The notes under the pieces: generated by a model
What the model saw: the letters and a program-made list of their open reading frames with translations, nothing else
What the model was told of the DNA's origin: nothing
The model's database searches: none
Translations under genes and position numbers: made by a program
Part shown: piece after piece, positions 19,310-61,889 of the stretch
Layout of the letters: each line of letters begins with the position of its first letter
Numbering within the stretch: position 1 is the first letter of the stretch
Source of the DNA: the human T2T-CHM13v2.0 reference genome, Homo sapiens
DNA length: 64,000 nt
Reading direction: 5' to 3'
Assembly: GCA_009914755.4 (NCBI GenBank)
Contig: CP068257.2
Location: 34,400,001 to 34,464,000, forward strand

Positions 19310-19384
19310 CTGAAAGTTATTTTTTAATTATTGTTATTGTAGTAAAACATATATATATATTTCACAGAACGTACGTACCTTTTT

Positions 19385-19700
19385 AACCAATTTTAAGTGT
19401 ATGGTTCAGCAGCATGAAGTACATTCACATTGTTTAGATCCACTGCCACTCTCCAGCTCCAGAACTTTTTCTATCACCCAAACAGAAACTCTACAAGCAT
19501 ACATCAATAACCCTATTCCCCTCTTCCCCAAACCCCCCGTCACCTCTACTCCACTCTCTGTCTCTACGAACTCACCTGTTCCAGGAACCTCACAGAAGTG
19601 GATCATACAGCATTTGTCCTTTTGTGTCTGGCTTATTTCATTTCCAATAATGTCTTCAAGCTTCATTAAAATCACTCTTTAAATCCCAGGCATGTTTTCA
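19385..19700 (-). mobile_element. L1 3'-UTR fragment in minus orientation, 75 bp upstream of the SETD4 terminal exon acceptor
   Basis: The plus strand is the reverse complement of the L1 3'-end consensus (gtacattcacattgtt...atttgtccttttgtgtctggcttatttcat...aatgtcttcaagcttcat). ORF track 19406..19675 (-) reads like an L1 3'-end translation. Confidence 0.65.
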
Positions 19701-23934: not shown

Positions 23935-24252
<318 letters not shown>

Positions 24253-24864
24253 TTAACCATGGATGAGGGGCCGGAGGCAGGGCCCATGCACAGGAGTTCC
24301 CAGTAAGAGAAACGCTTAAGAACTGGAACTACCCTGGGCATCCCACTGATGGCAGCCACCACTGCCAGGCTGCTCTCACACCATGGCGGGATCATTTCAA
24401 ACTTCATTTCATCCAGAAAAGAAAATCTGAAAGGGAGAGCCTTGAACCCTGTTTAGCCACTTGGCATGGAATCACCTCGCTACCCACCTACCCCAAGAGC
24501 CTGCACCATGTTGCCAGGTGCGTGGGCTCTCCTGAGGCCCAGCCTGGCCTTTCCACATGACCACAAGGGAGACAGACTCACCCTGGGCCACCCATCAACA
24601 CATCCAAGCTCTCTTTTGGTACCATAATTTAATATTTCTAGCTTGTATCTTATGTCCCTAAAGAAGTTTCTTTCAAGTGTCTTATACTCCTTTTGTCCTC
24701 CACAACATCAAGCGCAGTTTTACTGCACATAGTAAGTGCTCAATACCTACCCGTCAGCTGATACAGGGTCAGGAGGGGTCTCACCCCCATGGAAAATTTA
24801 ACCCCAGGTTTTCCATGAAAATTTCCTAAAGGAATAATTTTAAGAGGGAAAGAGAAACACTTAC

Positions 24865-24946
24865 TCTATATAGCCATGATCCTTTAAAATAGAAATCTTT
24901 TTGTCCATCTGTTTATCTGTTGATGGAAGATATTTAACAAGTATTT
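24865..24946 (-). CDS. SETD4: SETD4 coding exon 8 (82 nt): (E)ILVKYLPSTDKQMDKKISILKDHGYI(E)
   Basis: On the minus strand: tttttttttgaatatag|AAATACTTGTTAAATATCTTCCATCAACAGATAAACAGATGGACAAAAAGATTTCTATTTTAAAGGATCATGGCTATATAGA|gtaagtg. Confidence 0.87.
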
Positions 24947-25877
24947 CTATATTCAAAAAAAAAAATCAGACTGTTAGGGCATAAATTTGGACAAAAGTAT
25001 GTCTCCCTTCCCTTCTCAACTCACTTCCTTTCCCTTTAGCAACCCAGACATGCATAAACAGTTCCACCTAATTCACACAAAGGAAATCTACTCTTCAAGT
25101 CCAATTCAGTCACATCAGTACTGAGTCCCTGAAAGGCTGTAAGAATTTCAAGGCTGGAGGACTAAACACGCATAACCTCAGCTCCTGCTCCCACTAAGTA
25201 AATCCACCAAAAACAAGCAGGTCATTAGGACATCAGCATGACTGTTGAAAATTTACAGTCAACAAAAGTAGAGGCCCTGCAAAAACATGAGGAAAGGTTT
25301 ACAATACTGAGCTTTTTCCAAACCAGAATTCAAAGCAGTCTGGATATTAGTGACTGCAACTACAAAAAACTTAAAGTAAATATGCACAAATTAACAGAGC
25401 TATTTGGAGAAGCAGGGTAATAAGGGATTTTTCTATTTTATTTTAAAAATGTAAATATAACTAAAATATAATTTTTGCTCAAATTAATTTATTCAACAAA
25501 TGAATACTTCGCGGACATCAATATTAAATTTATCAGGATTTTGAAAACATGAAGCCAATCTCGAAGCTGGTTTTCTAGCAGCAAGACCCAGTTTTTGCTT
25601 TTCTATTTTTATTTTGAGAAATCACATTATTATTCTGCCTATAAGATGGAGTAGTAACAGCTTGGCCAAGTTTCTATCTCCAATCAAATCTATATTTAAA
25701 AATGCTTCAAATTATATATTTAATAAGGCTCTTGCCGTTTTTTCATGGCCTAGAAAACTGCTTCTCTACAGTTTCAGAAAGGGAAAAATCAGTCTTCTAT
25801 GTACTTTTTTAACACTATATTTGGAATTTTCACATCTTAAGTGTAATGGCTAACTTACTATTTTAAAATAATAAAAC

Positions 25878-25990
25878 TGGGCCAAGCACGGTAGCTCCCG
25901 CCTATAATACCAACACTCTGGGAGGTTGAGGCAGGAGGATCTCGAGCCCAGGAGTTGAAGACCAGCCTGGGCAACATAACAAGACACTGT
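25878..25990 (+). mobile_element. Free left Alu monomer (FLAM-like)
   Basis: It contains gggccaagcacggtagctcccgcctataataccaacactctgggaggttgaggcaggaggatctcgagcccaggagttgaagaccagcctgggcaaca. Confidence 0.65.
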
Positions 25991-26037
25991 CTCTATCATA
26001 TGAAAAAACAAATATTAAAAATAGTAATAATAAAACC

Positions 26038-26340
26038 AGGCCAGGCACAGTGGCTCACTCCTACAATCCTAGCACTTTGGGAGGCTGAGACAGGTAGATC
26101 ACTTGAGGCCAGAGTTCAAGACCAGCCTGGCCAACACGGCGAAACCCCGTCTCTACTAAAATTACAAAAGTAGCCAGGCATGGTGGTGCGTGCCTGTAAT
26201 CCCAGCTACTCCAGAGGCTAAGGCACAAGAATCACCTGAACCTGGGAGGCGGAGGTTCCAACGAGCCAAGATTACACCACTGCACTCCAGCCTGAGCAAC
26301 AGAGTGCGACTCTGACTCAAAAATAATAAAATCAATGATG
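26038..26340 (+). mobile_element. Alu
   Basis: Plus-orientation Alu consensus. Confidence 0.85.
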
Positions 26341-26839
26341 ATGGCTAGGTTAATAGATCACAAAAGAACATACATGAAATCAAATCTCACCATGGCAACA
26401 ACCTCCAGAAACAAGGACTATAGGTAGATTTATCTCTGTGATTAACACAGTGTCTTACCCACAGTAGGTGCTTAATAAATATTTTTTATTCATTGCTCTC
26501 TAATCCTATTTTCTTTAGTGCCAGTGACAACGTCTCAGTATAAACATTTCCATCCTTTAATACTGTATTTATTTCCTTAGCAGTTTTCCTTTTCTTCCAT
26601 TCTATCTTCTGACCCAATGCAATGAAAACTTCTCAAAATATCAGTCAAAACTTCGTTGTTTTTACTTCAACACTGAAATTACAGCCAGTAAGAGTAAGGC
26701 TAGGCCTACCTAGAAGAAAATTAGTGATATGTATGTCAGTCTTAAGGTTTTGATATTTTTATTAAAACTGAAAATACACATCTCCAAATGGGGAAAAAAA
26801 TTATATAGTGTTAATGTTAAGAACAAAGTTGATTCCAAC

Positions 26840-27014
26840 CTCTTGAGACATAAACACAAGCATGAGGATTATGGACAGAAACAAATCCGTATTCCAGGAA
26901 CAGCCGTTGATTATCGTGAGGGCCGTAACAGATGAATACCTCTTCATGCTTTCTCCAACGTGAAGTCGTTCTAATTTCGTAAGAATGAGTTTCTTCATTA
27001 AACGCTGCTTTTAC
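26840..27014 (-). CDS. SETD4: SETD4 coding exon 7 (175 nt), SET-domain core: VKAAFNEETHSYEIRTTSRWRKHEEVFICYGPHDNQRLFLEYGFVSVHNPHACVYVSR(E)
   Basis: On the minus strand: tttttctttctag|GTAAAAGCAGCGTTTAATGAAGAAACTCAT...GTTTATGTCTCAAGAG|gttgga. It contains the EEVFICYG / NHSC-like SET motif. It is not in the ORF track because no start codon opens this frame. Confidence 0.87.
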
Positions 27015-28639
27015 CTAGAAAGAAAAACTGTTAAGGTATTTTTTAAAGTAAGGTGTAAAACTCCAAAGCTGATTAAGTTATTACATAATATTAATGTGAG
27101 TCAGGTGCAGCTTTCAAACACCCATCAATAAATGTAACTACGCATAGGGAAAATGCCACTTCCGGTTTCATCCACCTCGACTTCACCCCATTGATGACGG
27201 AGGGAGTCCTGCCCTAGGGCTCTGGGGGTGGCCACACCACGACACCCGACACAGCACAGATGAGATCATCAGCAGTTTATTGGTCACGTCCACTCACAGC
27301 CCAGGGAAGGAGGACATGGTGGTGCCAATAAACTTTATCTGTAAAAAGCTAGAGAGTAAATACGTTCAGCTTTGCCAGCACTATGTGGTCTCTGTCACAA
27401 GTTGTTGTATTTTCACAATCCTTTCAAAGTGTAAAAACCATTCTTAGCTCAGGGCTCTTGGGCCACACGCCCACAGGCTGTAGTTCGTGCTGTGGTCTTC
27501 CTACAGTAAACTATAAACTCATTGGTTTGGCACATAAATGCACCAAAAGTCCCAATAAAAATAAATCACTGCTGACGGAGTCCCCATGTCTAGCATCCTA
27601 TCACACTACACACTCCTGATATTATTTCGTCAACATCAACCACAGAAACACTCACCTAATCCCAGGCTCCTTTGCTCCCGATTATTAAAGATACTTCTTT
27701 CTACAAAAGTAACAAGCAGACAGCCCTTGTTCCTGGGCTAAGAAAGCAGAGCGGGAACCTCCCTAAGCTCTGATCTCACGTAGAGAGCACGAAAGCTTAG
27801 CACGTGGGCTCACAAGGCATGGCTGCTCTTCTCCAGTGGAATGTCAGATGAAGGCGACGGCCAGGACACAGATCCCAGCCATGTCCCTCCACAACACACC
27901 CCAAAGTGGTTACAGGTGAGCCAACTGATGGACTCTCTTCCGCTCTCCAAGCCAGGCCTCTACCCCTGCATGCCCTGCAAATACACTCATTTCCTAAATG
28001 AGCCACCTGGGGAAAGCGCTGGGGAGGAGGCGATCTGTGACCACCTCCCAAATCAGGTTTCTTTCATTATTTCCCAGAACCCTTTCCCCACAAATACCCA
28101 TCCATTCAATAAACATTTACTGAACACCTACTATGTGCCAGGCCCTGCCATGAGCACTGAGGTGACAAAGAGGAACAAGACAAAGACCCCATTCTCAAAG
28201 ATTTCAGAGCTCAGTGGGAAAAAGAGCAAGTCAGTCAGCGATCAGAGCGAAGAGAAATGCTGTGACAGCTACAACACCAGTTTAAAAGGGACGGGGCAGG
28301 AAAGCAAGCTAAGCTTCAGTCCCGGAAGGAGGAACGAGGGAGAAGGAAGGAAGGCTCCGCACCACAGGCTGCTGGGAAAGACCGGACAGAGGATGCAGCA
28401 CGAGGCTCTGTAGGCCTGAAGAGCAGAGTGAAGAAAAGGGGCCAAGGCAAGCACTGCGGGAGGGATAGTGGGGTCTAGAAGAACAACAGGAGCCTCCTGA
28501 CGTCAGGCCAACCTGACAGGGTCACCTGAAGCCGCCGACACCTCTCCCTGTGGTGCCACCCACATCTACAGCCACAGGTTCTGGGCAGCGGAAGCCTTCC
28601 TATCCAAATAGAATAGCTGCTCCCTTGTCAGCTTCTCAC

Positions 28640-29069
28640 CTGGACATGTGGGCTATGATTCAGCAGGTCCAGGTACGGAGCGAGTGCACAGGTGTCCGGC
28701 TCTGCAGAAAGGCATTCCCGCTGCCTGGGCCTCAGGTACACGGCTCTGGTGTTGACGGTGCACCAAGCCCACAGCAGGGCACTGTAGCTGAAGATGCTGT
28801 CAACAGCCTCCGCAAACAGAGGCTGCAGAGAAGAGAAAAAGTCTCTGGAGGAAGCAAAGAACTCCTGCACGTGGGCTCTCTGCTCTTCAGCCTTTGCTTT
28901 TAAAGATTTGGGAAGAAGGTTCACCACTTCCGGCTCCAAACAAACAGGGCAGGTATACGCCTTGGGTAAAATCTCCAGGTAAGGCTTCCAAAGAGATCGG
29001 TGCCCAGCATGCTTTTCTGAAACTAAAAAGGTGCACAGCGCCAGCAGAGGAGATGGAGGAGGCTTCCAC
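28640..29069 (-). CDS. SETD4: SETD4 coding exon 6 (430 nt): (K)WKPPPSPLLALCTFLVSEKHAGHRSLWKPYLEILPKAYTCPVCLEPEVVNLLPKSLKAKAEEQRAHVQEFFASSRDFFSSLQPLFAEAVDSIFSYSALLWAWCTVNTRAVYLRPRQRECLSAEPDTCALAPYLDLLNHSPHVQ
   Basis: ORF track 28628..29113 (-) covers this exon. The acceptor is ttttaattttcaaag|G at 29070-29071 and the donor is CAG|gtgagaagc with GT at 28639-28638. Confidence 0.88.
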
Positions 29070-30033
29070 CTTTGAAAATTAAAAGCCAGTTTAAAGGAAT
29101 TACTTTGATTCAAAATACGAAATAAGCCAAGCAGTTTGTTTTGCTGCCAGAAGGAGTGTGTTCAAACTGTCAACACACTCAGTTTACTTAACAGACTCAA
29201 GAGTTCCTTCCTTCCTTCCTTAAGGCTCTTCCTCTCCAGGGGAGCACAGCCCCAGTGCTAGTGCTCTGAAAGAGCCATACTTACATGTCAGAAAAACTGA
29301 CTCACTAAGCCAAGTTCCAGGTTTGTTTGCAAGAGATTCCTCTTTGCAAAAAAACCTCTTTGCTTCCAACTTGGTTCTCCAGTTGTAAACCTTTTGACCT
29401 AAGTCCATTTGTCTCACCTATGTAAAGATATAAAATATGGTGGGGAAAAAATGGTGGAAAGAACTGAGACCTGCACCATCCGATATAGTAATCACTGGGT
29501 ACACAGAGCTATTTAAATTTAACCTTTAATTATTTAGAATTGAATATTTAAAATTCAATCCCTTGGTAAGATAAGCTATGTTTTAATTGCACAATAGCCA
29601 TTCAGAGCTAGTGGCCACCATACTGGACAATGCATAAAAAACATCTGTCATTGCTAAAAGCTCTATTGGAGGGCACCAACCTAAACCAAAACTGAATATG
29701 CTCATATACAGTTGTTGCAGTTCTAAAGCTTTTATTCCTAAGTTTACCTGCTCTATTACAAATTATGTATCACAGTATTTTTACTTGCACAATTGCCGAT
29801 AAAAAGATCTCATGTTGCCTGAATGTATTTAGAAAGTTTTCATCAATCCTTCGACATCCAGATTCCTATACTGCCATACATTCTACTCAAAATTTCAGAA
29901 TGATTCAGAAAATGTTAACAATGACAGCATCATTGTCTCTACACAGGCCTAAAAGACCTATTCACTCTCTTCCAAAAACATGCCAGGGGGAAAAAAGACC
30001 AGCACTTACCTAATGGTTAAGAGACAGTATACG

Positions 30034-30395
<362 letters not shown>

Positions 30396-30767
30396 TCAAA
30401 GATGCCCCAAAACAAAGGCCCAGCAGAACGTGTGCCAGAAAACAGTTCTTCCCCATCAGCCTCCTCTCTTCTATACCTAAATAAAACTAATTCTTTCACA
30501 AAATTAACAGCTCTTCAAAGTTCAAGGAAAACTGAAGTACAATAACGGTAGAAATAAGAGAGAGTAACTTACATTTGTCAAGAGCTACTATGATGGAAGA
30601 GAAGAGGCTACTATGAGCCAAGGCACTCAGCTGTGATTTACATATATTATCCCATTTAATTTTTATTTCTTAGTCAGTGATGGATCGGGATATCATACCC
30701 ACACTCCAGGAAGCCTATTAAAAACCTTAGAAATGCCATTTACAGTGAATTAAGAACAAACTTTCTG

Positions 30768-31059
<292 letters not shown>

Positions 31060-31060
<1 letters not shown>

Positions 31061-31205
31061 CAAGCAAGAGAGAGAGAAAGAGAGAGAGAGAGACAAGGAA
31101 GGAAGGAAGGAAGAGAGGGAGGGAGGGAGGGAAGGAGGGAAGGAGGGAGGGAGGGAGGGAGGAAGGCAGGCAGGCAGGCAGGCAGGAAGGCAGGGAGGGA
31201 GGGCA
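31060..31205 (+). repeat. Compound purine-rich microsatellite (GA)n-(GGAA)n-(GGGA)n-(CAGG)n at the 3' end of an Alu, about 160 bp from SETD4 exon 5
   Basis: The plus strand reads agagagagaaagagagagagagagacaaggaaggaaggaaggaagagagggagggagggagggaaggagggaaggagggagggagggagggaggaaggcaggcaggcaggcaggcaggaaggcagggaggg. Confidence 0.9.
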
Positions 31206-31365
31206 AACTTTCTAGAATGGAGTAAACTTTTCACATCATTCAGGTTATTTATCAGCTCTACAAGGGACTGGGTTCTAATGAATTGTGTCTCAAGTGACAT
31301 ATTTGCCATTGACAGACCTTAAGGAGAAGCACTTGCACCAGGTAAGCAAGTGTGTGGTCACTTAC

Positions 31366-31454
31366 TTAGTAATGTATGCCCCTAAGTAGCTTCGAATCAC
31401 TGTGTCCGTGGTGAGCAGGCAACTCTCAGGCAACGAAATAATCATCTGTCCCTC
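31366..31454 (-). CDS. SETD4: SETD4 coding exon 5 (89 nt): EGQMIISLPESCLLTTDTVIRSYLGAYIT(K)
   Basis: On the minus strand: ctttccttttggccag|GAGGGACAGATGATTATTTCGTTGCCTGAGAGTTGCCTGCTCACCACGGACACAGTGATTCGAAGCTACTTAGGGGCATACATTACTAA|gtaagtga. It ends in phase 2 (AA), which pairs with the G that starts exon 6 to give Lys. Confidence 0.88.
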
Positions 31455-31694
31455 CTGGCCAAAAGGAAAGTAAAGTTGAGGACGCCTATGCTTTGGGAAG
31501 GACCCATGAGTATGAGTCTTACAAAGTCGTTGATCCCACAATCACCTACCAGTAACCCACTGTAACTCAACCAAAAGCCACCAATGAGCCTACCAATGGA
31601 GTCGCTCCCAACTCTGCGAGTCAGCAGATGCACACGAGGCTGCTCCAAGGCGAGGCCCCACAGCCCCAACAAAAATGAAAGGTCAATTATGTGA

Positions 31695-31975
<281 letters not shown>

Positions 31976-32296
31976 CCTATTTCTTCACTTTCTTATGCCA
32001 GGAAATAGTGCTACCAATAGTAAACAGACAGAAACTACCCCCAAAAAATTGTATCCAGTGAAATCCAAGTGGCCAGGTGATGGTCTGCTCTCTACATAAC
32101 CCACGCTTATGAGCTAAAGAAAGGCCAGCATGCCCAACACAGTAAGCGTCGAACTCTACCACTTGCAAGAGTATCGTTTTCAGTGTCTCCCACGGAGATA
32201 GAACCATGGAAAGAAAAATTAGATGTAAAGTAATAGAAAACAGTTTAAATAAACACTGCATGAAGAAGCCAGATGTAAGACTCTCCTTTAATTCTA

Positions 32297-32653
<357 letters not shown>

Positions 32654-32989
32654 TCAATTTCTGGTTTCCTCATCTGTAAAGCAAGATTAAGCTGGATGAT
32701 CACTATGGTCACTTCCCATTCCAACATCCTATGATCTTTTGGTTTGAAAATATTTGGGTAAATCTCTTTATCATCAAAATGCAAACTGTACACTTCACTG
32801 TGCATTTCACTATATGTAAAATATGTCTCAATTTTCAAAAACTTTTGATAAAACAACCATATTTGAATGTACATGTGAAACAACTGCCAATTATTTCATG
32901 ACCTAAACAAAAACTACCTGTAGTTACTGCTGCATACATGACATTTCTCATCCCCAAATTCTGCTACAGAATAAAGTCAATTACACCTT

Positions 32990-33077
32990 CCTCCAAAAAC
33001 AAAAATATTGTACAACAATATGAATGTACTTAATACTACTGAACTTCAAAATGGTTAAGATGGTAAGTTTTATGTTA
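32990..33077 (+). mobile_element. L1 3'-terminal fragment split by the retrocopy insertion (continues at 35064-35095)
   Basis: The sequence actgaacttcaaaatggttaagatggtaagttttatgtta | retrocopy | gttttatgttacatatattttacaattaaaaa reconstitutes the L1 3' terminus. Confidence 0.6.
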
Positions 33078-35063
33078 GATGAGCTTCCGGGTTTATGGAT
33101 TCGTGGGCTGCTTCCACCTGCTAGGAGGGTGGTGCACTCTAACTCGGGGACAGAAGCCCCTGTGCTCAGGACTCTTGCAGACCTCTATATCTGGCTGTTC
33201 ATCTTCCATAATCAACTGGTAGATGTTACATCCAAGAGGAAACAATCCAGGCAAGGAAGCACAAGCTGATCAAGATCTGTAGTTACGTGGCTGCCAAGTT
33301 GTGGTTTTTGATAGATTGTCCCATCAGGGAAGACTATCCTCAAACAGAGATTTTACGAGCATTAAAGGCCAAATGTTGTGAGGAGGAACTGGACTTTAGG
33401 GCTGTGGTGATGGATGAGGTGGTGCTGACAATGGAGAAAGGAAACTTGGGTCTGCGGATCAATGGAGAGCTAATCACTGCCTACCCACAAGTGGTGGTAG
33501 TCAGAGTACCAACCCCTTGGGTGCAAAGTGATAGTGACATCACTGTTTTGCGCCATCTAGAGAAGATGGGATGCCAGTTAATGAACCGACTTCAAGCCAT
33601 CCTGAACTGCGTTAATAAGTTCTGGACATTTCAAGAGTTGGCTGGCCATGGTGTTCCTCTGCCGGATACTTTCTCTTATGGTGGCCATGAAAATTTTGCT
33701 AAAATGATTGATGAAGCTCAAGTACCGGAGTTCCCAATGGTAGTAAAGAATACGCGGGGTCATAGAGGTAAAGCTGTTTTCTTGGCTCGAGATAAGCACC
33801 ATTTGGCTGATCTAAGCCATCTTATTTGCCATGAAGCGCCATACTTGTTCCAGAAGTATGTTAAAGAGTCACATGGACGGGATGTACGTGTCATTGTCGT
33901 GGGAGGCCATGTGGTTGGCACCATGTTACATTGTTCAACAGATGGGAGAATGCAAAGCAACTGCTCATTAGGTGGTGTGGGGATGATGTGTTCATTGAGT
34001 GAACAAGGGAAGCAGCTAGCTATCCAGGTGTCTAATATCCTGGGGATGGATGTGTGTGGCGTTGACCTGTTGATGAAAGATGGCAGCTCCTTCTGTGTCT
34101 GTGAGGCCAATGCAAATGTAGGTTTCATCGTCTTTCATAAGGCTTGTAATCTAGATGTAGCTGGTATCAGAGCAGACTATACTGCCTCCCTTCTACCCTC
34201 TGGCCAGCTCACCCAGCGTATGTCCCTGCTCTCTGTGGTGTCCACTGCCAGTGAGACTAGTGAGCTGGAGCTGGGTCCCCCAGCCAGCACTGCTGTTGAC
34301 AACATAAGTGCAAGTTCCAGCTCTGTTGACAGTGACCCTGAAAGCATGGAGCGAGAGCTGCTCACCAAACTCCCAGGGTGACTGTTCAACATGAACCAGC
34401 TGCTAGCCAATGAAATCAAACTACTGGTGGACTGACTCCACTGGTAATTAACCAACAAAACCCTTGTAAAACTTTCTTTCTTTTTTCTTTTCTATTTTTA
34501 AAACCAACTTGCAATGCTGTTCATGGAGGATGCTCAGGAAGATGAGAGAAAATTAGTAGGATTAGTTGGAGAGAGTGGGAGATAGACGAGACCCCCGCTA
34601 GTAAGATGTTACTTTCATTTACAAATCCTACAGAGAGGCAGAATAGGTGGGGTATAGAAAAATGTCAGGCTGTCAGTTACCCTTTTAAATTGCTAAAAAA
34701 TTTGTATGCTCATAGACCATGAGGAACAAATACTTTTTTTTTCATGGTCCCTTGCTTTTGTTTTTGTACAAAAAAAATGGTTTTGCTACAAATATCCAAG
34801 TAGCATAACTCCACATTGTGTTGGAAGATTTGTCATCAGTGAGGAAAACATCTGCTTAAATTACAGGAATTTTTGTATTATACAGCTCTGAAAATTCTGC
34901 CATTTCCTTATTAACTAGCAGCTTTAGTTTGTAGTTTATGAAATCTTGAGGGGCTCTTTTACTGGGATTTCTTATTTTTGTTTTTCGTTTTTTCCCTCTT
35001 AATTTGGTGGGAGGGTCAAAGTGAATATAACCCAATAAAGGCTTCTTAATGACAAAAAAAAAA
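33078..35063 (+). pseudogene. RIMKLBP1: Processed retrocopy of an ATP-grasp RimK-like gene, most likely RIMKLB (RIMKLBP1-like). It is intronless and has an ORF of 364 codons (33287-34381), AATAAA at 35034-35039, a poly(A) tail at 35054-35063 and a 13-bp target-site duplication AAGTTTTATGTTA (33065-33077 and 35062-35074)
   Basis: ORF 33287..34381 contains [48 protein letters not shown]...[28 protein letters not shown]...[11 protein letters not shown]...[26 protein letters not shown] (RimK/ATP-grasp). The in-frame upstream codons ATC TGT AGT TAC suggest the native ATG TGT AGT ... start mutated to ATC. A TGA at 34379 truncates a C-terminus that otherwise reads on as GLFNMNQLLANEIKLLVD*. It is inserted inside an old L1 3' end. 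Confidence 0.8.
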
Positions 35064-35321
35064 GTTTTATGTTACATATATTTTACAATTAAAAATTTTT
35101 AAATGATGAAAACATTAACACGGCGTAATAGAATTACAACATTAAAACATACCATTCTTTATATATTGGACTTCTTGTGTTTGTGATTTTCACCTGTTTA
35201 GGAAAGATAACCTGAATTCCCTTGCTGACTATGCTTGCATTTTAAAGAAACTATACTTTCCTTTAATATTTTAAAAACTTCTCTTTTTAACACAACATTT
35301 TTAAAAAGTAAAATTACTTTT

Positions 35322-35634
35322 GGGCCAGGCATAGTGCCTCATGCTTGTAATCCCAACACTTTGGGAGGCCAAGGCGGGCAGATCACCTGAGGTCAGAAGT
35401 TCAAGACCAGCCTAGCCAAGATGGTGAAACCCTGTCTCTACTAAAAAAAAAAAAAAAAAAAAAAATTAGCTGGGCATGGTGGCACATGCCTGTAATTTCA
35501 GCTACTTCAGGAGGCTGAGGCAAAAGAATTGCTTGAACCCAGGAGACGGAGGTTGCAAGGAGCCGAGATCGCGCCACTGCACTCCAGCCTGGGCAACAGA
35601 GCAAGACTCTGTCTCAAAAAAAAAAAAAAAAAAG
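35322..35634 (+). mobile_element. Alu with an expanded A-rich linker
   Basis: Plus-orientation Alu consensus. Confidence 0.8.
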
Positions 35635-36640
35635 GACGTTTTATCTACTGAAAAAAAAAAGATACCATTCCTTAGCCTAAACATATGTACACATCTGAGT
35701 GCAAGTTTTAAATAGAGAATTTAAAATAAGATAATTTTTAAATAAAGGAAGAAATTAATTTCTGGCTTCACAGAAAATCGTGCGCTAGAGATCTTTAAAA
35801 TAGCATTGGAAGAATGAAAAGAAACCTTGGAGGCTGTCATTTACTTCCTCATTTTGTAGGTGAGGAAACAGGAGCCAAGAGTATGAGGGGTCTCATGCTG
35901 GGGCCTCAGGCAGCTGAAGGCAACTCTGGCCCAAGTCTGAGGCCTCATCCTCCCCTAGCTCTGGTTTCTACCTGCCACATCACGACTGCCTCACAGACAG
36001 CAGCAGCTCCCTTGGCATACTGAAAACGTGATCTGACATGTAACATGTGCTGTGGCAGAGATTGCTAGTTGCCTATCCCAACACGCCTTCTCTCCCCCTC
36101 CTCGCTAACGGAATCCTACTTAGAGGGCACGTGGCTGGGGAAAGGCCAGCACGGATCTCCTCCCTTGCAGCTGGCTAGGGCTGTGTACCTGATCACTGGC
36201 CAAGGACAGAGGGACTGGAATTTCCTTAAAGGAAGGAAGCCTGCCCTTCCTCACCCGCTTGCTCTCTCCTGATGCCCAAGTTCCAAGACCCACAACCTGA
36301 CCTGAGGGTGCAGTTCCCTTAAGGACATGAGAGAGCTGGAAGGAGTTGGGGCCTCTGCCAGCCATGGGACTGCCCCACCAGCCAGGGTCAGCCTACTCCA
36401 AGCTTGTTTCTATGAGTGAGAACAAAATAAATTTCCATGCTGCTTAAGCACCTCAATTTTGGGCTTGTCTTTTATTGCAACAAACTTAATCCTAGTTGAT
36501 AGAACCATATTCAAATATATCTATTAGGTAAGTAAGAAATGACTGTATGTCTGAAATTTTTTTAATTCACTTCGTTTGAACCGCAAAAACAAAGCAGCAA
36601 AATCTACATTGGGTTTCAAGGATCAAAGAACAGTTCTCAC

Positions 36641-36678
36641 CTGCAGGGATGTTTGACTCATCAGCCCTCTTCCTGTAC
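36641..36678 (-). CDS. SETD4: SETD4 coding exon 4, a 38-nt micro-exon: (G)TGRGLMSQTSLQ
   Basis: On the minus strand: ctttctgtctttgctttcctag|GTACAGGAAGAGGGCTGATGAGTCAAACATCCCTGCAG|gtgagaac. It has a strong polypyrimidine tract and a GTGAGA donor. Confidence 0.88.
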
Positions 36679-37571
36679 CTAGGAAAGCAAAGACAGAAAG
36701 AGAGTAAATCCTACCATAACTTCAAGGTCCCAGAGATAACTATTATGGAAAAAAAAAATGTGAACTTCAAAATTACACAAGGCTGAAGCTGGATGTCTCT
36801 CAGCCTTTGATTCCCAGGGGAAACAGGGAGTCAGAAAGCTATTCCAGAAAATGTCTTGACCTCCAGTGAGTTATAATCCTTGAAGGGCAGTCAGCTTCAG
36901 AGGTGAGACCTAAAGAGCACCGTGGACTTTATACAGACCTACTGCTGGGCCTCCTGCAGGACGCTTTGGGCTGGACTCTCTCCACTGGGGCCTACCAGCT
37001 AACAAGGTGCTATTCCCAATGCCCAGCCAACCTCTGAGGCTAGAGCCCCAGGCCACTTATCCCCATTACCAGACTCAGCTCTCCCAAGTGAAGACCTTGA
37101 GACCCCTTTGATTGGCCGACTGGCCAATAAACCCCACTCAAGTCCCCACAAAGCCTGCAGACATCCTCCCCTCTCTGATCAGGTAACCCATGAGATGGGC
37201 TCTCCATGACCTGGTGAGCTCAGCTGGGTAGGTCAGCTCCAGCTGTTCCCTGTGAGCCAAGGCTCCGGCTGGAGCACAGTCACCATAGTAACCTCAGCAG
37301 CTGCATTAATACCAATTAATTCAATAAATTCCTTTATTTAAAAATTAATACCAACTTCCAGAAGTTTCTCCCTTCATGCCTAAGCTTCTGCTCCTGGAAC
37401 AGTCAGACAAACATTGAAAGGATGCTCAGATGACAGCTTTTCTGGCAGGCATAGGTATTACATGGTCATAAGAGGCCTAGAGCATTAACGTCTCCAATTC
37501 ATCGTTCTTCACCTTTCCTCTCTTAGCTGGGAGGGAAAATAATTCAGCCAAGTCAGTGCAGGACTACTGGG

Positions 37572-38045
37572 AGCTCCCAGCTCACGGTGGCTCACTGCCT
37601 CAAGTCCTCCATCAGTTTCCCGCAACTTGGATTTGATGCTCCCGGCTCATGGTGGGAATTCCTGCCTCAAGTCCTCCATCGGTTTCCTGGCAGGTTGGAT
37701 TTGATGCTCCTGGCTCATGGTGGGAATTCCTGCCTCAAGTCCTCCATCGGTTTCCTGGCAGGTTGGATTTGATGCTCCCGGCTCATGGTGGGAATTCCTG
37801 CCTCAAGTCTTCCATCAGCTTCCTGGCAGGTTGGATTTGATGCTCCTGGCTCATGGTGGGAATTCCTGCCTCAAGTCTTCCATCAGCTTCCTGGCAGGTT
37901 GGATTTGATGCTCCTGGCTCATGGTGGGAATTCCTGCCTCAAGTCTTCCATCAGCTTCCTGGCAGGTTGGATTTGATGCTCCTGGCTCATGGTGGGAATT
38001 CCTGCCTCAAGTCCTCCATCAGTTTCCCAGCAAGTTGGATTTGAT
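37572..38045. repeat. 68-bp minisatellite with about 7 tandem copies (unit ggtgggaattcctgcctcaagtcctccatcggtttcctggcaggttggatttgatgctcccggctcat), in SETD4 intron 3
   Basis: Six ORF-track entries of 61-63 aa start every 68 bp (37587, 37649, 37717, 37785, 37853, 37921) and have near-identical translations (MVGIPASSPPSVSWQVGFDAPGSWWEFLPQV...). Confidence 0.9.
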
Positions 38046-43960: not shown

Positions 43961-45587
43961 TCTAAATACCCCTTCTTCCAATAGCGGGAGCTCGATTTCT
44001 GCCCCACCCACCCCCACTTTGATTATGGGCTATGCCTAGTAACTTGATTCCAAAGAGTACAGCCTGGAATGGTGTTGGGGACTACAGTGGAGAAACCTGG
44101 CAAACAGTACCTTACCGGGTGGTCAAGGATAACATCAGGAAGAAATCATGCTGATAGCATGTTCCTGTGGTGTCTCTCTCCAAAACCCTTCTATGGAAAT
44201 CTTCTATGGGGGAAAAAAAATTAGTACTCCTAAACATGTTTTCTGTCATGAAAAACAAGTACAGTTGTCCCTTAGTGTCCGTGGGGGAATGGTTCCAGGA
44301 CCCTGCGGATACCAGAATTAGAATGCTCAAGTCCCTTGTATACAATGGTGTAAACCTAAGTAACAAAAGAGGCTCCCTAAAAGAAAATGAGATTTATCTG
44401 GGAGTAGCATTGCAATGGGAATATGCATGCCATAGTAAACTGTGTGCGTTTTGGGGGAGGTTGAGGCAAGGAGATGTTTTTAAAAGGAAAATGAAGATTA
44501 TATGAATTGCTTTAAATCAATTATCTTTGGCTAAAAGAATGAATAACAAAGGTAGCATCAGTCCAAAGTTGCTGGACAGATGTCCTTGCAGAAGGATTTT
44601 CTGTGTTTAAGATTGGGCCTTTCTGCAAGGTTAGGGTCTTTTGTGACAATTCTTGTTATGAGGCGTAGTGCATGAGAACCCTTCCTTCAAGGCCTTCCCC
44701 AGCTGCATTTATCAGGGTTTTGACACAAGTGACTCCATTTTGATTCTGCAACTTTCACAATGGTGTAATATTTGCATATAACCTATGCACATCCTCCCAT
44801 ATACTTTAAATCATCTCTAGATTACTTATAACATCTAATACAATGTAAATACTATGTAAATAGTGAAGGGGTGGCCTGCCGCTCCACACCTGTGGGTGTT
44901 TCTCATCGGGTGGGATGAGAGACTGAGAAAAAAAAGAGACACAGAGGCAAAGTATAGAGAAAGAAAAGTGGGCCCAGTGGACCGGCGCTCAGCATACGGA
45001 GCACAAATCCTATTTAAACTACAGATTCTAAACACAAATGATTTTATTCACCCCTGCCCCCCAACACTAAAAGATTTAAACACTAACATAGTTTCTAACA
45101 GCTGTAAACTAAACAAATCCTAAGCCCCTACTGACTGAATGGAACCCCTTTTGGCCAAGATGGCCCCAGAAAAAAACTTAGAAACTTAGTTCCCAGCCCT
45201 GATGGAATGTGAGGTCAGACATGCCTCATTATACCCTCTCTCTTTTACAGTTTAGATACAACTGGCCAGCATTGATGTTAAAATAGAGACCATGAGACTG
45301 ATGGAACAGACTTTTTGTGGCAATAAGATACAAAAATTATAAACAAGACCTAAGGCCATTCCAGGAAAGAGTTAAGTCACTTCAAGAATAAATTCTGTTC
45401 TAATGGTTACAAGTTTTTTCTTTTTCTCTAGCAGCTAAACAAGCACTCACCTCCACCTAAGCAATATTAAAACAATTACCGCTTGTGCACCACCAGATGT
45501 TAACTAACCCCCTGTTCCACAATGACAGAGCATCACCATCTTGGACAACCCCCTCATTCTAAAGTGCACCTTAATAAAAAACCGCCT

Positions 45588-46555: not shown

Positions 46556-47558
46556 GGCTGCAGTCCAAGAGGCCCTTTGCCAATTCCAACTGGAACATCC
46601 AACATCGGACACTAATCCAGCCAACTGGTAAGATCTGCCCTCCCCTGGCTTTCTCGCGGTACCCGGGAAAAGTCAGGTTGGCCGTCCGGTCCTCAGAGGA
46701 CCAGCAGAACTAAGCTAGAGGAAACCTTGGGGACGCCCAGTTTCTTCTCAACTTGACCATCCTCTTTAGTAAGAGGATTCTGGGTCTCTGTCTTTTGTCT
46801 GGGAATGCCTAGAACAAAAACAGACACCCTCTGCTTCTTCTCGCCAGTCCACATGGATGCCAAACAATCCCACATCCCTACACACACCACAAATAACATC
46901 TCCAACCGGAAAGATTCCAAACTCCTCCCCGACCAGAGACATGCTAGCCCCTAGATAAAGCCCCCTCCAGGCCAGGAAGATGCTGGCCCCAAGATAACCC
47001 CCCTCCAGGCCAGAAAGATGTCTGCCCCAAGATAACCTCCGCTCCTCCCAGAGAGATTCCAACCCTGCCATGACCTTCTCCACACACATAAATATTCCAA
47101 GCTTGTGATAAGCCCCCTTACCCTAAAACCAATACATACTCTTAGTCTGTAAGAGAAAGAGCTCCTGACCAAAATGGGCCAGGAGCGCCTCTCAGGTTTC
47201 ATCTAAAGTAGACCTGTCTCTAACTGCCAACGCATTTTTGCTTCTTTCCTCTTTCTCTAACTCTTACACACAAGCCATAACTACAGCTTTGATTAGACAA
47301 GAGACTGATTTCAACAACTTTCTCCTGATAAGAAGATCATGGACTATGGAATGGACTGGTTCTGGTTTACAGAGGCTGTGTACTTGCGTGCCTTGATGTC
47401 CTGAAAGACCTTTTGACAGATAGGGCCTAATGGTAATACATTTAAATGTCAAGTCACCATCCCAAAGTGAATATACATGAGTCGTATGTTACATGCATGT
47501 TTCTTCAATATGCATGTATCAGGACCACCTTCATGAATATTCACAGCTCCTCCTGTAA

Positions 47559-48606: not shown

Positions 48607-49229
48607 AAAGAATGTCTTTCTCAAGGACCTGAAAGCCATTCCTCTGAAATGTAATCATCAGAAATGATACGGCCTCTGTCTTTCAGTCTTTATAGTGGGA
48701 GAATAGAATCCCAACTTTGCTAATTGCCAGCTAACAGACACAGCTGGCCTAACCAACATTTCCACTGAGCAACCCTTGGCAATTTGTCATTTCCCTAACT
48801 CCTCCCACTTCCTGATCCTTCACTCTCCCTTTAAAAGGCACAGTCATCTCTGTACAAATGAAAGTTTGTTTCCACTGGACCCTCTTTCCTATTACAGGAG
48901 TTCATTATTGACTAAAATCTGTCCTTACCACCTTAGTGTCTGGCTTTATCTTTCACAGAATTCAGTAAATTGCTTGAGTTAAATAACTACTAAGCACCTA
49001 AGCCACAGATTGATTCCAGGTCTCAAAGTCCATGGTCTACCGCTGTAGAAAGGCTTATTGAATATCCTAAACAAGCATAAAATGCAAGAGGAACACAGCC
49101 AGTGTCAAGCAGATCCGTGAGGGTAAATAATCAAAGGAACGACCTGGAGAACCTCACAGTTCATAATTTAACAATATTATTTTCCAACATCTTTTCTTTT
49201 AATATATACCATGGAACTGTGTTTTGGGC

Positions 49230-53174: not shown

Positions 53175-53463
53175 ATGTCGTCCGGCATCCATGTAGCGCT
53201 GGTGACTGGAGGCAACAAGGGCATCGGCTTGGCCATCGTGCGCGACCTGTGCCGGCTGTTCTCGGGGGACGTGGTGCTCACGGCGCGGGACGTGACGCGG
53301 GGCCAGGCGGCCGTACAGCAGCTGCAGGCGGAGGGCCTGAGCCCGCGCTTCCACCAGCTGGACATCGACGATCTGCAGAGCATCCGCGCCCTGCGCGACT
53401 TCCTGCGCAAGGAGTACGGGGGCCTGGACGTGCTGGTCAACAACGCGGGCATCGCCTTCAAGG
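53175..53463 (+). CDS. CBR1: CBR1 (carbonyl reductase [NADPH] 1) coding exon 1: ATG at 53175, encodes MSSGIHVALVTGGNKGIGLAIVRDL...NNAGIAFK plus 1 nt; donor GTATGG at 53464
   Basis: ORF track frame 53064..53537 contains MSSGIHVALVTGGNKGIGLAIVRDLCRLFSGDVVLTARDVTRGQAAVQQLQAEGLSPRFHQLDIDDLQSIRALRDFLRKEYGGLDVLVNNAGIAFK, which I recognise as the CBR1 N-terminus (SDR family, TGxxxGxG Rossmann motif). It sits in a CpG island, and the GT donor lies immediately after AAG G. Confidence 0.93.
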
Positions 53464-54008
53464 GTATGGGGAGGGGACGTGGCCTCCCCGAAGAAGAACC
53501 GATGCACTGGGGCTCCTGGCGTCTGCGGGGTCCATAACGCCTCCCTAGGGAGGAGAGGGAGGAGCTAGGAGATGCAGGGAGTGCAGAAACCTTGGAGAAA
53601 GTGAGAGTTTTCCAGCCAAAGGGAACTTTGTGTTTCCCTGGCTGGGACTCTTGGGGATCTTTTTCAGGTTTTCTGCAGTTTTTCTGAATTGAGCTTTAAG
53701 GCAACTGGATGGATTTTGAACTGATTTTAAAATAAACGACAAATTGCAAAAAGAAAAAATGGTTATGCCAAGATCCAGTGTGTGCACCCTTCATCCTCCT
53801 TCCCCCAATGGTGCCATCTTACAAAAATACTAGAACATGATCAAACCAGGAGATTGACATTGGCACAATACTGTAACCAGATACAGACTTACTTTAGGCA
53901 GAGGGCACTAAGTTTTTGTTTTTTTTTTTTTTTTTTTTTAGTATCATTGTATAGAATTTTACCCCATGGGTACAATGTATTAACTATGTTCTCTTTCTCT
54001 CCTAAAAG

Positions 54009-54116
54009 TTGCTGATCCCACACCCTTTCATATTCAAGCTGAAGTGACGATGAAAACAAATTTCTTTGGTACCCGAGATGTGTGCACAGAATTACTCCCT
54101 CTAATAAAACCCCAAG
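54009..54116 (+). CDS. CBR1: CBR1 coding exon 2 (108 nt): ..V ADPTPFHIQAEVTMKTNFFGTRDVCTELLPLIKPQ(G)
   Basis: Acceptor cctaaaag at 54001-54008. The exon reads tt gct gat ccc aca ccc ... aaa ccc caa g, followed by the donor gtgagtct at 54117. Phase is consistent with exon 1, and ORF track 54044..54256 shows MTMKTNFFGTRDVCTELLPLIKPQG. Confidence 0.93.
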
Positions 54117-55504
54117 GTGAGTCTGATGGGAAACAGCGCACCTTCTCTTTGGGGCTTGATTTGGCCCCTGCTTGCCTGGGATTTCTCCTGCAGGCTCCTG
54201 CTTCCTCTCCATGCTGCACGTGCACTGACCTCTGTGCTTTTTCTCCTGCCAGCTGATATGTGCCATTTTGCCTCAGGACTTTGTCCTCACTTCTCCCACT
54301 CCCATGGCCATTCGTCCTCCCTGTCGCACTGGTCTTTGCACACCTGGCTGACTCTCATCCTTCAGGTCTTAGCTCAAACGTCTCCTGAGAGATGCTCTTT
54401 ATTTGCTCCATTCCCCTCCGCGTGGGAGTCCATCCTGTACCCTTTCTCTGCTCTTTCAGAGAGATCTTATTCAGGCTGGTGGAGGCTTTACTACCACCAG
54501 TTCATTAGGCCCTTCTAATACCTGTCACCTGTCTGAAACACTCCTTAAGCTCCCAACCACATGGTTGTCTTGCTGCCTTTCCATCTCTTCCTGATGCCTT
54601 TCCCCACAATCTAAGATATTTCCAGAGGATCCCTATCCTTTTCCCTAAGTCGTTTGGGACACAGACCCCACCACCCACCCACCAGGATCCTGCAGGTCAC
54701 CATGCCCCACCCCTCATAATCATTTACTAGGTCCTAGGAGTTGTGCCCACTGAGTTCCTCCTGAATCCGTCTCATTGCAGCTCTACAGCAGGCCCTCACC
54801 TGTCCCTCTGGACAATTGCAAACCCTCACAAGGCACCTCTGGTCTTGAGTCTTTTCCTCTTTTCCTTTCCCAGCATCCTGCGTACTGTCTGCATGGTCAT
54901 GCCTCTCCCAAAATCCTTCAGGAGGAAAGTCCAAGCCCTTAGCATGGTTCACAGAGATGTCCATAATCTGCCGCTGCTTAACTCTGGGCCCATTTTAACT
55001 CCCCTTCAACGTGCTGAAGGTGCTGGACATGACTATCACATGTCTTTGGTTGTAAACTGCTGTGATAGTTACCCTAAGTAATGGGACAGGAGATGAACCC
55101 ACCCATTAAATAACACAGCAATTAAGCAGCCACTTTTAGAAAAATTTAAATGTGTGGCTTCGAGTTGGGTACTTGCATGTACAGCTTACTCTCAGCTTTT
55201 ATCCTGTTTCCCTGTCCTGTCGTCCTGTTAAGTTGTGCTACTTCTAAGGCTCTGGTTCACCAGGACCTCAAAGGGCAGCTCTTCCAAATCTCACCTGACT
55301 CTACTCAGCCAAAATTCGAAGGCAGGAATGAACTTCTTCATGCAACTACCACCACACTTTCTATGCGTATTCCTCTTAGAACTCATACCAGTAACTGTCT
55401 CTCATATGAAAATTTTCTGCTCCAAAATCCCTGCAAATTTGGCATTCACCTCTCTACGGGATTGTTGCACACCTTTCTACATAATGCTTTGTGGTGTATC
55501 TTAG

Positions 55505-61489: not shown

Positions 61490-61885
61490 ATAGATTGAAG
61501 GCTGGCTGCCAAGAAGATATGTCCATGTGTCAGAATCTATGAATATTTTCTTTGGAAGAAAGATTTTTGCAAATGTAATTAAGGATTTCAAGCTGAGCTC
61601 ATCCTGGATTATCTGGGTGGGCCCTAAATCAATGACAAGTGTCTTTTTACAAAACAGAGAGACAAGGCAGGCATATGAAGACAGGTTGATTAGAGGGATG
61701 TGGCCGTAGCCCCAAGCCAAGGAAAGCCTGCAGCCCACAAAAGCTGGAAGAGTCAAGGAAAGATTTCTCTCTAGAGACTTTGGAGGGAATGCAGCTATAC
61801 TGACAGCTTGATTTCAGAATTCTGGCCTCCAGAACTATGAGAGTAAATCTCCGTTGTAAGTCACCAAGTTTGGGGTTATCTGTTT
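61490..61885 (+). mobile_element. MaLR-type LTR (MLT1-like) fragment followed by an Alu
   Basis: It has the signature ...ctggcctccagaactatgagagtaaatctccgttgtaagtcaccaagtttggggttatctgtttca, like the element at 3600. Confidence 0.5.
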
Positions 61886-61889
61886 CATT

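What the first reader, a model, noticed from the sequence alone, without database searches (positions are those of the whole stretch)
33065..35074. Near-intact RimK-like (RIMKLB-type) processed retrocopy, antisense inside a SETD4 intron, with textbook retroposition hallmarks
This is a single uninterrupted 364-codon ATP-grasp/RimK-family reading frame (33287-34381) in an intronless copy.

- **Retroposition hallmarks.** It ends with AATAAA (35034-35039) plus a 10-nt poly(A). It is flanked by a 13-bp target-site duplication AAGTTTTATGTTA and inserted into an older L1 3' end. That is the full signature of L1-mediated retroposition.
- **Disabling lesions.** There are only two: the presumed native start codon reads ATC (the in-frame upstream codons are ATC TGT AGT TAC), and a TGA at 34379 removes about 19 C-terminal residues that are still readable downstream (GLFNMNQLLANEIKLLVD*).
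- **Implication.** So few lesions in about 2 kb argue for either a young insertion or residual constraint.
- **Transcription.** It is oriented opposite to the host SETD4 intron, so any transcription would give RNA antisense to the SETD4 pre-mRNA. An in-frame internal Met could still yield an N-terminally intact ATP-grasp domain protein.
Basis: partly seen in the sequence, partly recalled or inferred. Interest (0 to 1): 0.7.

Follow-up and report, generated by a model that had tools for sequence, protein, structure and literature searches.

The report
Known RIMKLB processed pseudogene in SETD4
This is a dead, intron-less copy of the RIMKLB enzyme gene that a LINE-1 element pasted into an intron of SETD4 on human chromosome 21 over 17 million years ago; it is already catalogued as RIMKLBP1 and has drifted neutrally since, so it is ordinary.

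Summary
The element (33065-35074, + strand) is a processed retrocopy of RIMKLB. It aligns to five separate exons of the macaque RIMKLB gene with four introns of 1.8-42.7 kb missing. It ends at the parent's polyadenylation site, carries a short A tract, and is flanked by an exact 13-bp target-site duplication. It split the 3' end of an older L1 and lies antisense in a SETD4 intron.

It is not new. The literature lists a pseudogene RIMKLBP1 (GeneID 54031, ENST00000408914) at 21q22.12 beside SETD4, and the window also holds SETD4 and a CBR1-like gene.

The idea that few lesions mean youth or residual constraint is not supported:
- 27-28 nonsynonymous and 11-13 synonymous changes lie on the retrocopy lineage, giving omega of about 0.7-0.96. 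This is indistinguishable from 1, while the parent's omega is 0.03.
- Nine of the 28 changed residues are invariant across vertebrates, the proportion chance predicts.
- One nonsense codon matches the neutral expectation of about 1.4.
- A gibbon gene model shares seven derived residues, so the insertion predates the human-gibbon split, and I estimate it at roughly 20-30 million years old.

The first in-frame ATG is codon 46, so no N-terminally intact protein can be made. Transcription could not be tested here.

The parts
33008..33064 (+). Upstream flank: the older L1 3'-end sequence that was split by the insertion
   Evidence: Joined to 35075 onward, it aligns contiguously with two other copies of the same repeat in the window (4983-5068 on +, 19434-19355 on -). 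The copy at about 4560-5068 is preceded by a remnant matching LINE-1 ORF2p residues 1193-1271, E = 4e-9.
33065..33077 (+). 5' target-site duplication AAGTTTTATGTTA
   Evidence: Exact 13-mer found only twice in the window, 0 expected by chance. It is present once in the related L1 copies.
33078..33218 (+). 5' leader of the retrocopy, inferred to come from upstream non-coding RIMKLB exon(s)
   Evidence: Homology to macaque genomic DNA stops exactly at a splice acceptor (AG|GTAGAC) at the position matching 33219. No match was found within 10 kb upstream in macaque. The source exon was not recovered, so this is an inference.
33219..33274 (+). 5' UTR portion of the first coding exon
   Evidence: Aligns to macaque L001 1945-2000, immediately upstream of the ATG.
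33275..33277 (+). Lost start codon (ATG to ATC)
   Evidence: Codon alignment with macaque and Talpa RIMKLB, G to C at 33277.
33275..34435 (+). RIMKLB coding-sequence remnant, 1161 nt. Exon-exon junctions fall after 33449, 33680, 33767 and 33971.
   Evidence: Same length as the macaque CDS, 47 nt differences (95.95% identity), no indels. The junctions correspond to GT/AG introns of 42.7, 1.9, 1.8 and 12.6 kb in macaque L001 and to the same four junctions in Talpa L004.
34379..34381 (+). Premature stop codon (GGC to TGA, codon 369)
   Evidence: The gibbon model P0006 keeps Gly here, so the stop arose after the human-gibbon split.
34436..35053 (+). 3' UTR copy
   Evidence: Aligns to the macaque and Talpa 3' UTR up to the cleavage site. 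It carries 12 retro-lineage substitutions and 2-3 small indels in 615 nt.
35034..35039 (+). Polyadenylation signal AATAAA
   Evidence: Conserved in the macaque and Talpa parent genes. The cleavage site lies about 14 nt downstream.
35054..35063 (+). A10 tract (poly(A) tail remnant)
   Evidence: The parent genomic sequence reads GACAAAATTGGCATG here. The retrocopy has A10 followed directly by the duplication.
35062..35074 (+). 3' target-site duplication AAGTTTTATGTTA
35075..35100 (+). Downstream flank: the last bases and A-rich tail of the split L1
   Evidence: Continues the alignment to the other L1 3' ends.
31365..36703 (-). Host SETD4 intron, bounded by coding exons ending at about 36641 and starting at about 31500
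   Evidence: tblastn finds SETD4 exons on the minus strand at 36703-36641 and 31634-31365. The name SETD4 is confirmed for the exon at 28631-29071.

Best explanation
The element is the human processed pseudogene RIMKLBP1. A spliced, polyadenylated RIMKLB mRNA (beta-citrylglutamate / NAAG synthase B), using a proximal poly(A) site 618 nt after the stop codon, was reverse-transcribed and integrated by the LINE-1 machinery through target-primed reverse transcription. The target was the 3' end of an older L1 inside a SETD4 intron, in the orientation opposite to SETD4. This happened before the human-gibbon split. My own estimate is roughly 20-30 million years ago.

The copy arrived without a promoter of its own and has since decayed neutrally. 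It lost its ATG, gained a TGA at codon 369, and acquired 26 missense changes, with heavy CpG decay. It makes no functional enzyme.

Shown here: intron loss, the poly(A)-site end, the target-site duplication, the split L1, the SETD4 context, the neutral substitution pattern, and shared derived residues in gibbon. Inferred: the L1 enzymatic mechanism, the date, and the absence of function.
For: - Intron loss. The retrocopy aligns to five separate macaque RIMKLB exons at 93-98% identity, with four GT/AG introns absent. The same junctions are found in Talpa.
- End of the copy. It stops at the parent's cleavage site after AATAAA, followed by A's that the parent genome lacks.
- Target-site duplication. 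An exact 13-bp direct repeat sits at both ends, unique in the window.
- Split L1. The two flanks are contiguous, with a single copy of the 13-mer, in two other copies of the same repeat. One of these follows an L1 ORF2p C-terminal remnant.
- Host gene. SETD4 exons lie on the minus strand on both sides, and a CBR1-like gene lies at 53175-55938.
- Existing annotation. RIMKLBP1 is listed as a pseudogene at 21q22.12 next to SETD4 and as ENST00000408914 in GENCODE.
- Neutral substitution pattern. The retro lineage has 27-28 N and 11-13 S changes, giving omega 0.71 (NG sites) to 0.83-0.96 (transition/CpG-weighted). The p value against neutrality is 0.35-0.86, omega <= 0.2 is rejected at p < 1e-4, and the parent's omega is 0.029.
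- Conserved residues are not spared. Nine of 28 changed residues are invariant in 39 vertebrate RIMKLA/B proteins, against a 37% background.
- CpG decay. Fifteen of 60 parental CpG sites are mutated, against about 2.1% of non-CpG sites.
- Nonsense codons. About 1.4 are expected and 1 is observed.
- Age. The gibbon model P0006 shares Q55K, R101Q, R185C, R219H, D270G, P331L and T358M.
Against: - No indel occurs in the 1161-nt CDS, against 2-3 small retro-lineage indels in the 615-nt 3' UTR. Fisher p is 0.04-0.12. This is a weak hint of frame preservation. The UTR indels sit in or near low-complexity runs, and some may predate the insertion.
- The L1 endonuclease site is only a loose match (T|AAG against the consensus TT|AAAA).
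- Identity with the named locus RIMKLBP1 rests on cytoband and neighbouring genes, not on compared coordinates.
- An expression-array study lists RIMKLBP1 as a detected transcript, so it may not be transcriptionally silent.
Confidence: 0.93

Rival explanations
1. The retrocopy is transcribed on the + strand and acts as a non-coding regulator. It could act as RNA antisense to the SETD4 pre-mRNA, or as a decoy for microRNAs or RNA-binding factors that target RIMKLB.
For: It lies antisense within the SETD4 intron. It keeps 94-98% identity to RIMKLB exons, including the 3' UTR. RIMKLBP1 appears as a detected 'mRNA' anticorrelated with lnc-CBR1-3 in a nasal-mucosa array study. GENCODE changed its name and biotype over successive releases.
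Against: No promoter came with the copy, and none can be assessed here. Array probes can cross-hybridise with RIMKLB. The sequence decays at the neutral rate in both the CDS and the UTR. No paper in the searched library reports a function.
Confidence: 0.05
2. The copy was, or still is, a protein-coding retrogene under partial constraint. It would yield an ATP-grasp protein from an internal Met, or would have been functional for a period before recent pseudogenisation.
For: There is no frameshift across 1161 nt, and only one nonsense codon, which arose after the gibbon split. There is a weak depletion of indels in the CDS relative to the UTR. Codon 46 ATG has a good Kozak context, gtggtgATGG. 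The 95% interval of omega extends down to about 0.34.
Against: - Omega is indistinguishable from 1 and about 25-fold above the parent's.
- Invariant residues are hit at the chance rate, including R219H, which aligns to a conserved Arg in bacterial RimK.
- Seven missense changes, including R101Q, R185C and R219H at invariant positions, were already fixed before the human-gibbon split.
- The start codon is lost and four upstream ATGs precede codon 46.
- The gibbon gene model has to skip 11 residues and replace the N-terminus, which suggests independent lesions.
Confidence: 0.02
3. It is a DNA-level (segmental) duplicate of RIMKLB, or a chance ORF, rather than a retrocopy.
For: None beyond the presence of a long ORF.
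Against: Four introns are precisely absent at GT/AG boundaries. Homology ends at the poly(A) site and at a splice acceptor at the 5' side. The target-site duplication is exact. The ORF is 92% identical to RIMKLB, E = 4e-221.
Confidence: 0

Closest known systems
RIMKLBP1 (ribosomal modification protein rimK like family member B pseudogene 1; GeneID 54031; ENST00000408914; 21q22.12)
   Same: It is a RIMKLB-derived pseudogene in the chromosome band that also holds SETD4 and CBR1-AS1. The window carries SETD4 exons and a CBR1-like gene around the element. Earlier GENCODE names were RIMKLP and RIMKLB2.
   Different: Nothing detected. I could not compare genome coordinates directly, so the identification rests on context.
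RIMKLB (beta-citrylglutamate synthase B / NAAG synthase), the parent gene
   Same: 95.95% nucleotide identity to the macaque CDS and 92% protein identity. It has the same RimK ATP-grasp domain, the same length, and a co-linear 3' UTR up to the poly(A) site.
   Different: There are no introns. The start codon is ATC, there is a TGA at codon 369, and there are 26 missense changes, of which 8 fall at vertebrate-invariant residues. Omega is about 1 against 0.03. It sits in a different locus, inside SETD4.
Typical L1-mediated processed pseudogenes (for example ribosomal-protein pseudogenes)
   Same: It is an intron-less, near full-length mRNA copy. It has AATAAA plus an A tract, a 13-bp target-site duplication, insertion in AT-rich repeat DNA, and neutral decay with CpG loss.
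   Different: The tail remnant is unusually short, and the endonuclease site is only a loose match to TT|AAAA. The complete absence of frameshifts over 1.16 kb is at the low end of what is expected, but not significantly so.

Membership tests
Processed (L1-mediated) pseudogene | Parental introns precisely absent | tested here: met
   Five exon blocks align to macaque L001 at 1944-2177, 44903-45137, 47007-47096, 48934-49141 and 61710-62814. GT/AG boundaries were resolved. The same holds in Talpa.
Processed (L1-mediated) pseudogene | Copy ends at the parental polyadenylation site, followed by an A tract not encoded in the parent genome | tested here: met
   The three-way 3' UTR alignment shows retro ...AATAAAGGCTTCTTAATGAC+A10, while the parent continues ACAAAATTGGCATG.
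Processed (L1-mediated) pseudogene | Flanking target-site duplication of 7-20 bp | tested here: met
   A 13-bp exact repeat at 33065-33077 and 35062-35074, 0 expected by chance. It is single-copy in homologous L1 3' ends.
Processed (L1-mediated) pseudogene | Integration at an L1 endonuclease consensus site (5'-TT|AAAA-3') | tested here: inconclusive
   The site reads GGT|AAGTTT, which matches only T|AA. The consensus is taken from established knowledge.
Processed (L1-mediated) pseudogene | Loss of coding capacity and neutral evolution | tested here: met
   ATG to ATC, TGA at codon 369. Omega is 0.71-0.96 and not different from 1. The parent's omega is 0.029.
RimK / ATP-grasp family, RIMKLB subfamily (by descent) | RimK ATP-grasp domain, and closer to RIMKLB than to RIMKLA | tested here: met
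   PF08443 E = 8.8e-40. Identity is 92% to RIMKLB against about 61-68% to full-length RIMKLA hits. Bacterial RimK structures match at E = 2e-23.
Functional RIMKLB-type enzyme | Intact start, full-length ORF, invariant residues preserved | tested here: not met
   The start is lost, 18 C-terminal residues are cut off, and 9 of the 28 changes fall at positions invariant in 39 vertebrate homologues.
Named locus RIMKLBP1 | RIMKLB pseudogene at 21q22.12 in the SETD4/CBR1 region | tested here: met
   The gene list for 21q22.12 names RIMKLBP1, SETD4 and CBR1-AS1. The window holds SETD4 and a CBR1-like gene. Coordinates were not compared directly.
Expressed or functional retrogene | Transcription from the + strand in some tissue | not testable with these tools
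   The only evidence is an array listing in the literature, and cross-hybridisation with RIMKLB is possible.
Expressed or functional retrogene | Purifying selection (omega < 1) and an ORF conserved across species | tested here: not met
   Omega is about 1. The gibbon model needs an 11-residue skip and a substituted N-terminus.

The most novel reading that the evidence does not exclude
RIMKLBP1 is transcribed from the + strand and its RNA has a regulatory role. It could be antisense to the SETD4 pre-mRNA in cis, or a competing RNA for RIMKLB regulators. The complete absence of frameshifts over about 25 million years might reflect a past period as a working retrogene.
Probability: 0.04. Interest if true: 0.35.

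Novelty: already known. Interest (0 to 1): 0.07.

Why it matters
It matters little for biology. It is one of thousands of human processed pseudogenes, already named and annotated.

Its practical relevance is technical. At about 96% identity to RIMKLB exons it can attract mis-mapped reads and cross-hybridising probes. It also seeds chimeric contigs and spurious 'proteins' in public assemblies, as seen here with P0089 and contigs L002, L003 and L013. Gene models built on it appear in primate proteomes, for example the gibbon entry A0A2I3HC04.

Tried and rejected
- Human parent gene. I could not obtain it. The 90% cluster of P0001 listed no human member. The metagenome scan returned only fragments. 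The best primate-like fragments (L002, L003, L013) turned out to be low-coverage chimeras of pseudogene and parent, so I did not use them for dating. An early inference from L002, that the retrocopy carries an ape-specific parental substitution at 33871, was withdrawn when L003 disagreed.
- Parental exon 1 (source of 33078-33218). It was not found within 10 kb upstream of the macaque coding exon.
- Orthologous loci. Look-ups for gibbon P0006, Old World monkey P0019 and P0057, and orangutan SETD4 P0139 were not on record. Presence in Old World monkeys therefore remains open.
- JGI contig L006. It covers only window 24218-31053 and breaks at an Alu before reaching the retrocopy.
- Pfam searches. 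Single SETD4 exons and L1 ORF2 pseudo-translations gave nothing. The names were obtained instead from the protein database and from PDB L1 ORF2p entries.
- Rfam. There were no matches in 30000-38000.
- Indel rates. The Zhang & Gerstein 2003 paper on pseudogene indel rates is not held, so I used the element's own 3' UTR as the internal control for indels.
Full report
**Observation.**
- There is a 364-codon open frame at 33287-34381 on the + strand.
- In-frame codons ATC TGT AGT TAC lie just upstream, so the native ATG position at 33275-33277 reads ATC.
- A TGA sits at 34379-34381, after which the frame stays readable to a second TGA at 34433-34435.
- AATAAA lies at 35034-35039 and a run of ten A's at 35054-35063.
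- The 13-mer AAGTTTTATGTTA occurs at 33065-33077 and 35062-35074. It occurs nowhere else in the 64-kb window and never in 100 shuffles.

**What the ORF is.** It matches Pfam RimK (PF08443, E = 8.8e-40) and bacterial RimK structures (E about 2e-23). In the protein database its best hits are vertebrate beta-citrylglutamate synthase B (RIMKLB) at 92% identity, E = 4e-221. Full-length RIMKLA hits are about 61-68% identical.

**It is a processed copy.**
- I fetched the macaque RIMKLB gene (L001, 64 kb) and aligned the element to it.
- Window 33218-33451, 33449-33683, 33680-33769, 33766-33973 and 33970-35057 match five separate blocks at L001 1944-2177, 44903-45137, 47007-47096, 48934-49141 and 61710-62814. 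Identities are 93-98%.
- Resolving the GT/AG boundaries reproduces the canonical 386-residue protein. The exon-exon junctions in the window fall after 33449, 33680, 33767 and 33971.
- Four introns of 42.7, 1.9, 1.8 and 12.6 kb are therefore precisely missing. The same junctions are found in the Talpa gene (L004).
- Homology to macaque genomic DNA also stops at a splice acceptor (AG|GTAGAC) at the position matching 33219. I infer that 33078-33218 comes from one or more upstream 5' UTR exons. That exon is not within 10 kb in macaque, so this step is not shown.
- At the 3' end, a three-way alignment shows the copy ending at ...AATAAAGGCTTCTTAATGAC followed by A10. Both parent genomes continue ACAAAATTGGCATG. 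The copy therefore ends at the mRNA cleavage site.

**Insertion site.**
- Joining the two flanks with one copy of the 13-mer gives a sequence that aligns contiguously with two other repeat copies in the window (4983-5068 on +, 19434-19355 on -).
- The first of these is directly preceded by a decayed reading frame that matches LINE-1 ORF2p residues 1193-1271 of solved structures, E = 4e-9.
- The nick site (GGT|AAG) is only a loose match to the L1 endonuclease consensus TT|AAAA. That consensus is from established knowledge and was not tested.

**Host gene.**
- A tblastn with SETD4 finds exons on the minus strand from 41946 down to 19178, identical to the query within the exon cores.
- Two of these exons, at 36703-36641 and 31634-31365, bracket the element.
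- The database names the 28631-29071 exon 'SET domain-containing protein 4'.
- The element is therefore antisense within a SETD4 intron in the SETD4-CBR1 region.

**Already known.**
- A gene table for 21q22.12 lists RIMKLBP1 (GeneID 54031, 'pseudo') beside SETD4 and CBR1-AS1 (PMC12779367).
- A GENCODE history paper traces ENST00000408914 through the names RIMKLP, RIMKLB2 and RIMKLBP1 (PMC5084464).
- An array study lists RIMKLBP1 as anticorrelated with lnc-CBR1-3 (PMC8033732).
- No paper in the library reports a function.

**Is there constraint, or youth?** The coding remnant 33275-34435 is 1161 nt, exactly the parental length. It has 47 differences from the macaque CDS (95.95% identity) and no indel.
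- Polarising with Talpa puts 27-28 nonsynonymous and 11-13 synonymous changes on the retrocopy lineage. The macaque lineage has 0 and 6.
- With 887.7 N and 270.3 S sites, omega is 0.71. With a transition- and CpG-weighted mutation spectrum the implied omega is 0.83-0.96. The p value against neutrality is 0.35-0.86.
- Omega <= 0.2 is rejected at p < 1e-4. The parent's omega, macaque against Talpa, is 0.029.
- Nine of the 28 changed residues are invariant in 39 vertebrate RIMKLB/RIMKLA proteins. These are M1, T13, R101, E149, L151, R185, R219, I263 and D288. The background proportion of invariant positions is 37% (p = 0.70).
- Fifteen of 60 parental CpG sites have mutated, against about 2.1% of non-CpG sites. 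This is the signature of methylated, unconstrained DNA.
- Among 40 neutral substitutions about 1.4 nonsense mutations are expected, and one is seen, with P(<=1) of about 0.6.
- The one oddity is indels. The CDS has none, while the 615-nt 3' UTR has 2-3 small retro-lineage indels (Fisher p = 0.04-0.12). These UTR indels lie in or near low-complexity runs, so I treat this as weak.

**Age.**
- A gibbon UniProt entry (P0006, A0A2I3HC04) is a gene model built on the orthologous copy. It shares seven derived residues with the window: Q55K, R101Q, R185C, R219H, D270G, P331L and T358M. It lacks about 20 human-lineage changes, including the TGA. The insertion therefore predates the human-gibbon split.
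- Seven of 28 changes are shared. Non-CpG divergence is about 2.0-2.4% in both the CDS and the UTR. Using commonly quoted primate rates, which is my own estimate, this suggests roughly 20-30 million years.
- Whether the Old World monkey models P0019, P0020, P0055 and P0057 are orthologues or independent retrocopies could not be settled, because their loci were not retrievable.

**Coding potential.** The first in-frame ATG is at 33410 (codon 46) and opens 323 codons. Four ATGs precede it in the leader, at 33079, 33095, 33223 and 33373. A product would lack 45 N-terminal and 18 C-terminal residues and carry the invariant-site substitutions. One of these is R219H, which aligns with a conserved Arg of bacterial RimK. 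The suggestion of an N-terminally intact ATP-grasp protein is therefore wrong.

**Verdict.** The retrocopy interpretation is right in structure, but the inference of youth or constraint and the implied novelty are not. This is the annotated, neutrally decaying processed pseudogene RIMKLBP1. Transcription and any RNA-level role could not be tested with these tools and remain a low-probability residual.

Noticed in passing
L002 (1-1540), L003 (1-901), L013 (1-1018); window 33041-33973: Three contigs from low-coverage metagenome assemblies (L002 is labelled human bile), presumably human contaminant DNA, fuse this pseudogene to the parent gene. L002 even includes its chr21 flank. The fused parts are RIMKLB exon plus intron sequence, with mosaic switch points. 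They gave rise to a spurious 247-aa protein cluster (P0089, 20 members).
   Followed up: yes
L006 against window 24218-31053: A JGI metagenome contig (sample 3300032031) is only 99.1% identical to the window, with 41 mismatches in 6839 nt. This is more than expected between two humans, so it may be host DNA from a non-human ape. Collinearity breaks at an Alu near 31053.
   Followed up: partly
P0006, P0087 (Nomascus); P0019, P0020, P0055, P0057 (Old World monkeys): Several UniProt/Ensembl primate 'N-acetylaspartylglutamate synthase' entries look like gene models built on RIMKLB retrocopies, with skipped segments and missense load. P0006 is the gibbon orthologue of this locus.
   Followed up: partly
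P0002 (macaque RIMKLB isoform X1), between the exons matching window 33971/33972: The predicted isoform carries a 54-residue insert (EMRSCCVAQASLELLASGDPP...) that resembles a translated antisense Alu. This would be an exonised Alu in the 12.6-kb intron.
   Followed up: no
window 53175-55938 (+): A three-exon gene matches carbonyl reductase 1 (CBR1), with exon 1 100% identical. This places the window in the SETD4-CBR1 region of 21q22.12.
   Followed up: partly
window about 4560-5068 (+) and 19355-19434 (-): Two further old L1 3' ends. The first has an ORF2p C-terminal remnant (PDB L1 ORF2p residues 1193-1271, E = 4e-9). The second lies immediately upstream of the last SETD4 coding exon (19312-19178).
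   Followed up: partly
window 33275-34435 against 34436-35053: There are no indels in the 1161-nt coding remnant but 2-3 small retro-lineage indels in the 615-nt 3' UTR (Fisher p = 0.04-0.12). This is probably a sequence-context effect, but it is the only feature that leans toward frame preservation.
   Followed up: partly
window 30767-31063, 31785-31977, 32329-32630, 35323-35629: Alu-like repeats, each similar to many other copies in the window, surround the insertion. The L1 fragment upstream of the retrocopy is itself interrupted by one of them.
   Followed up: no
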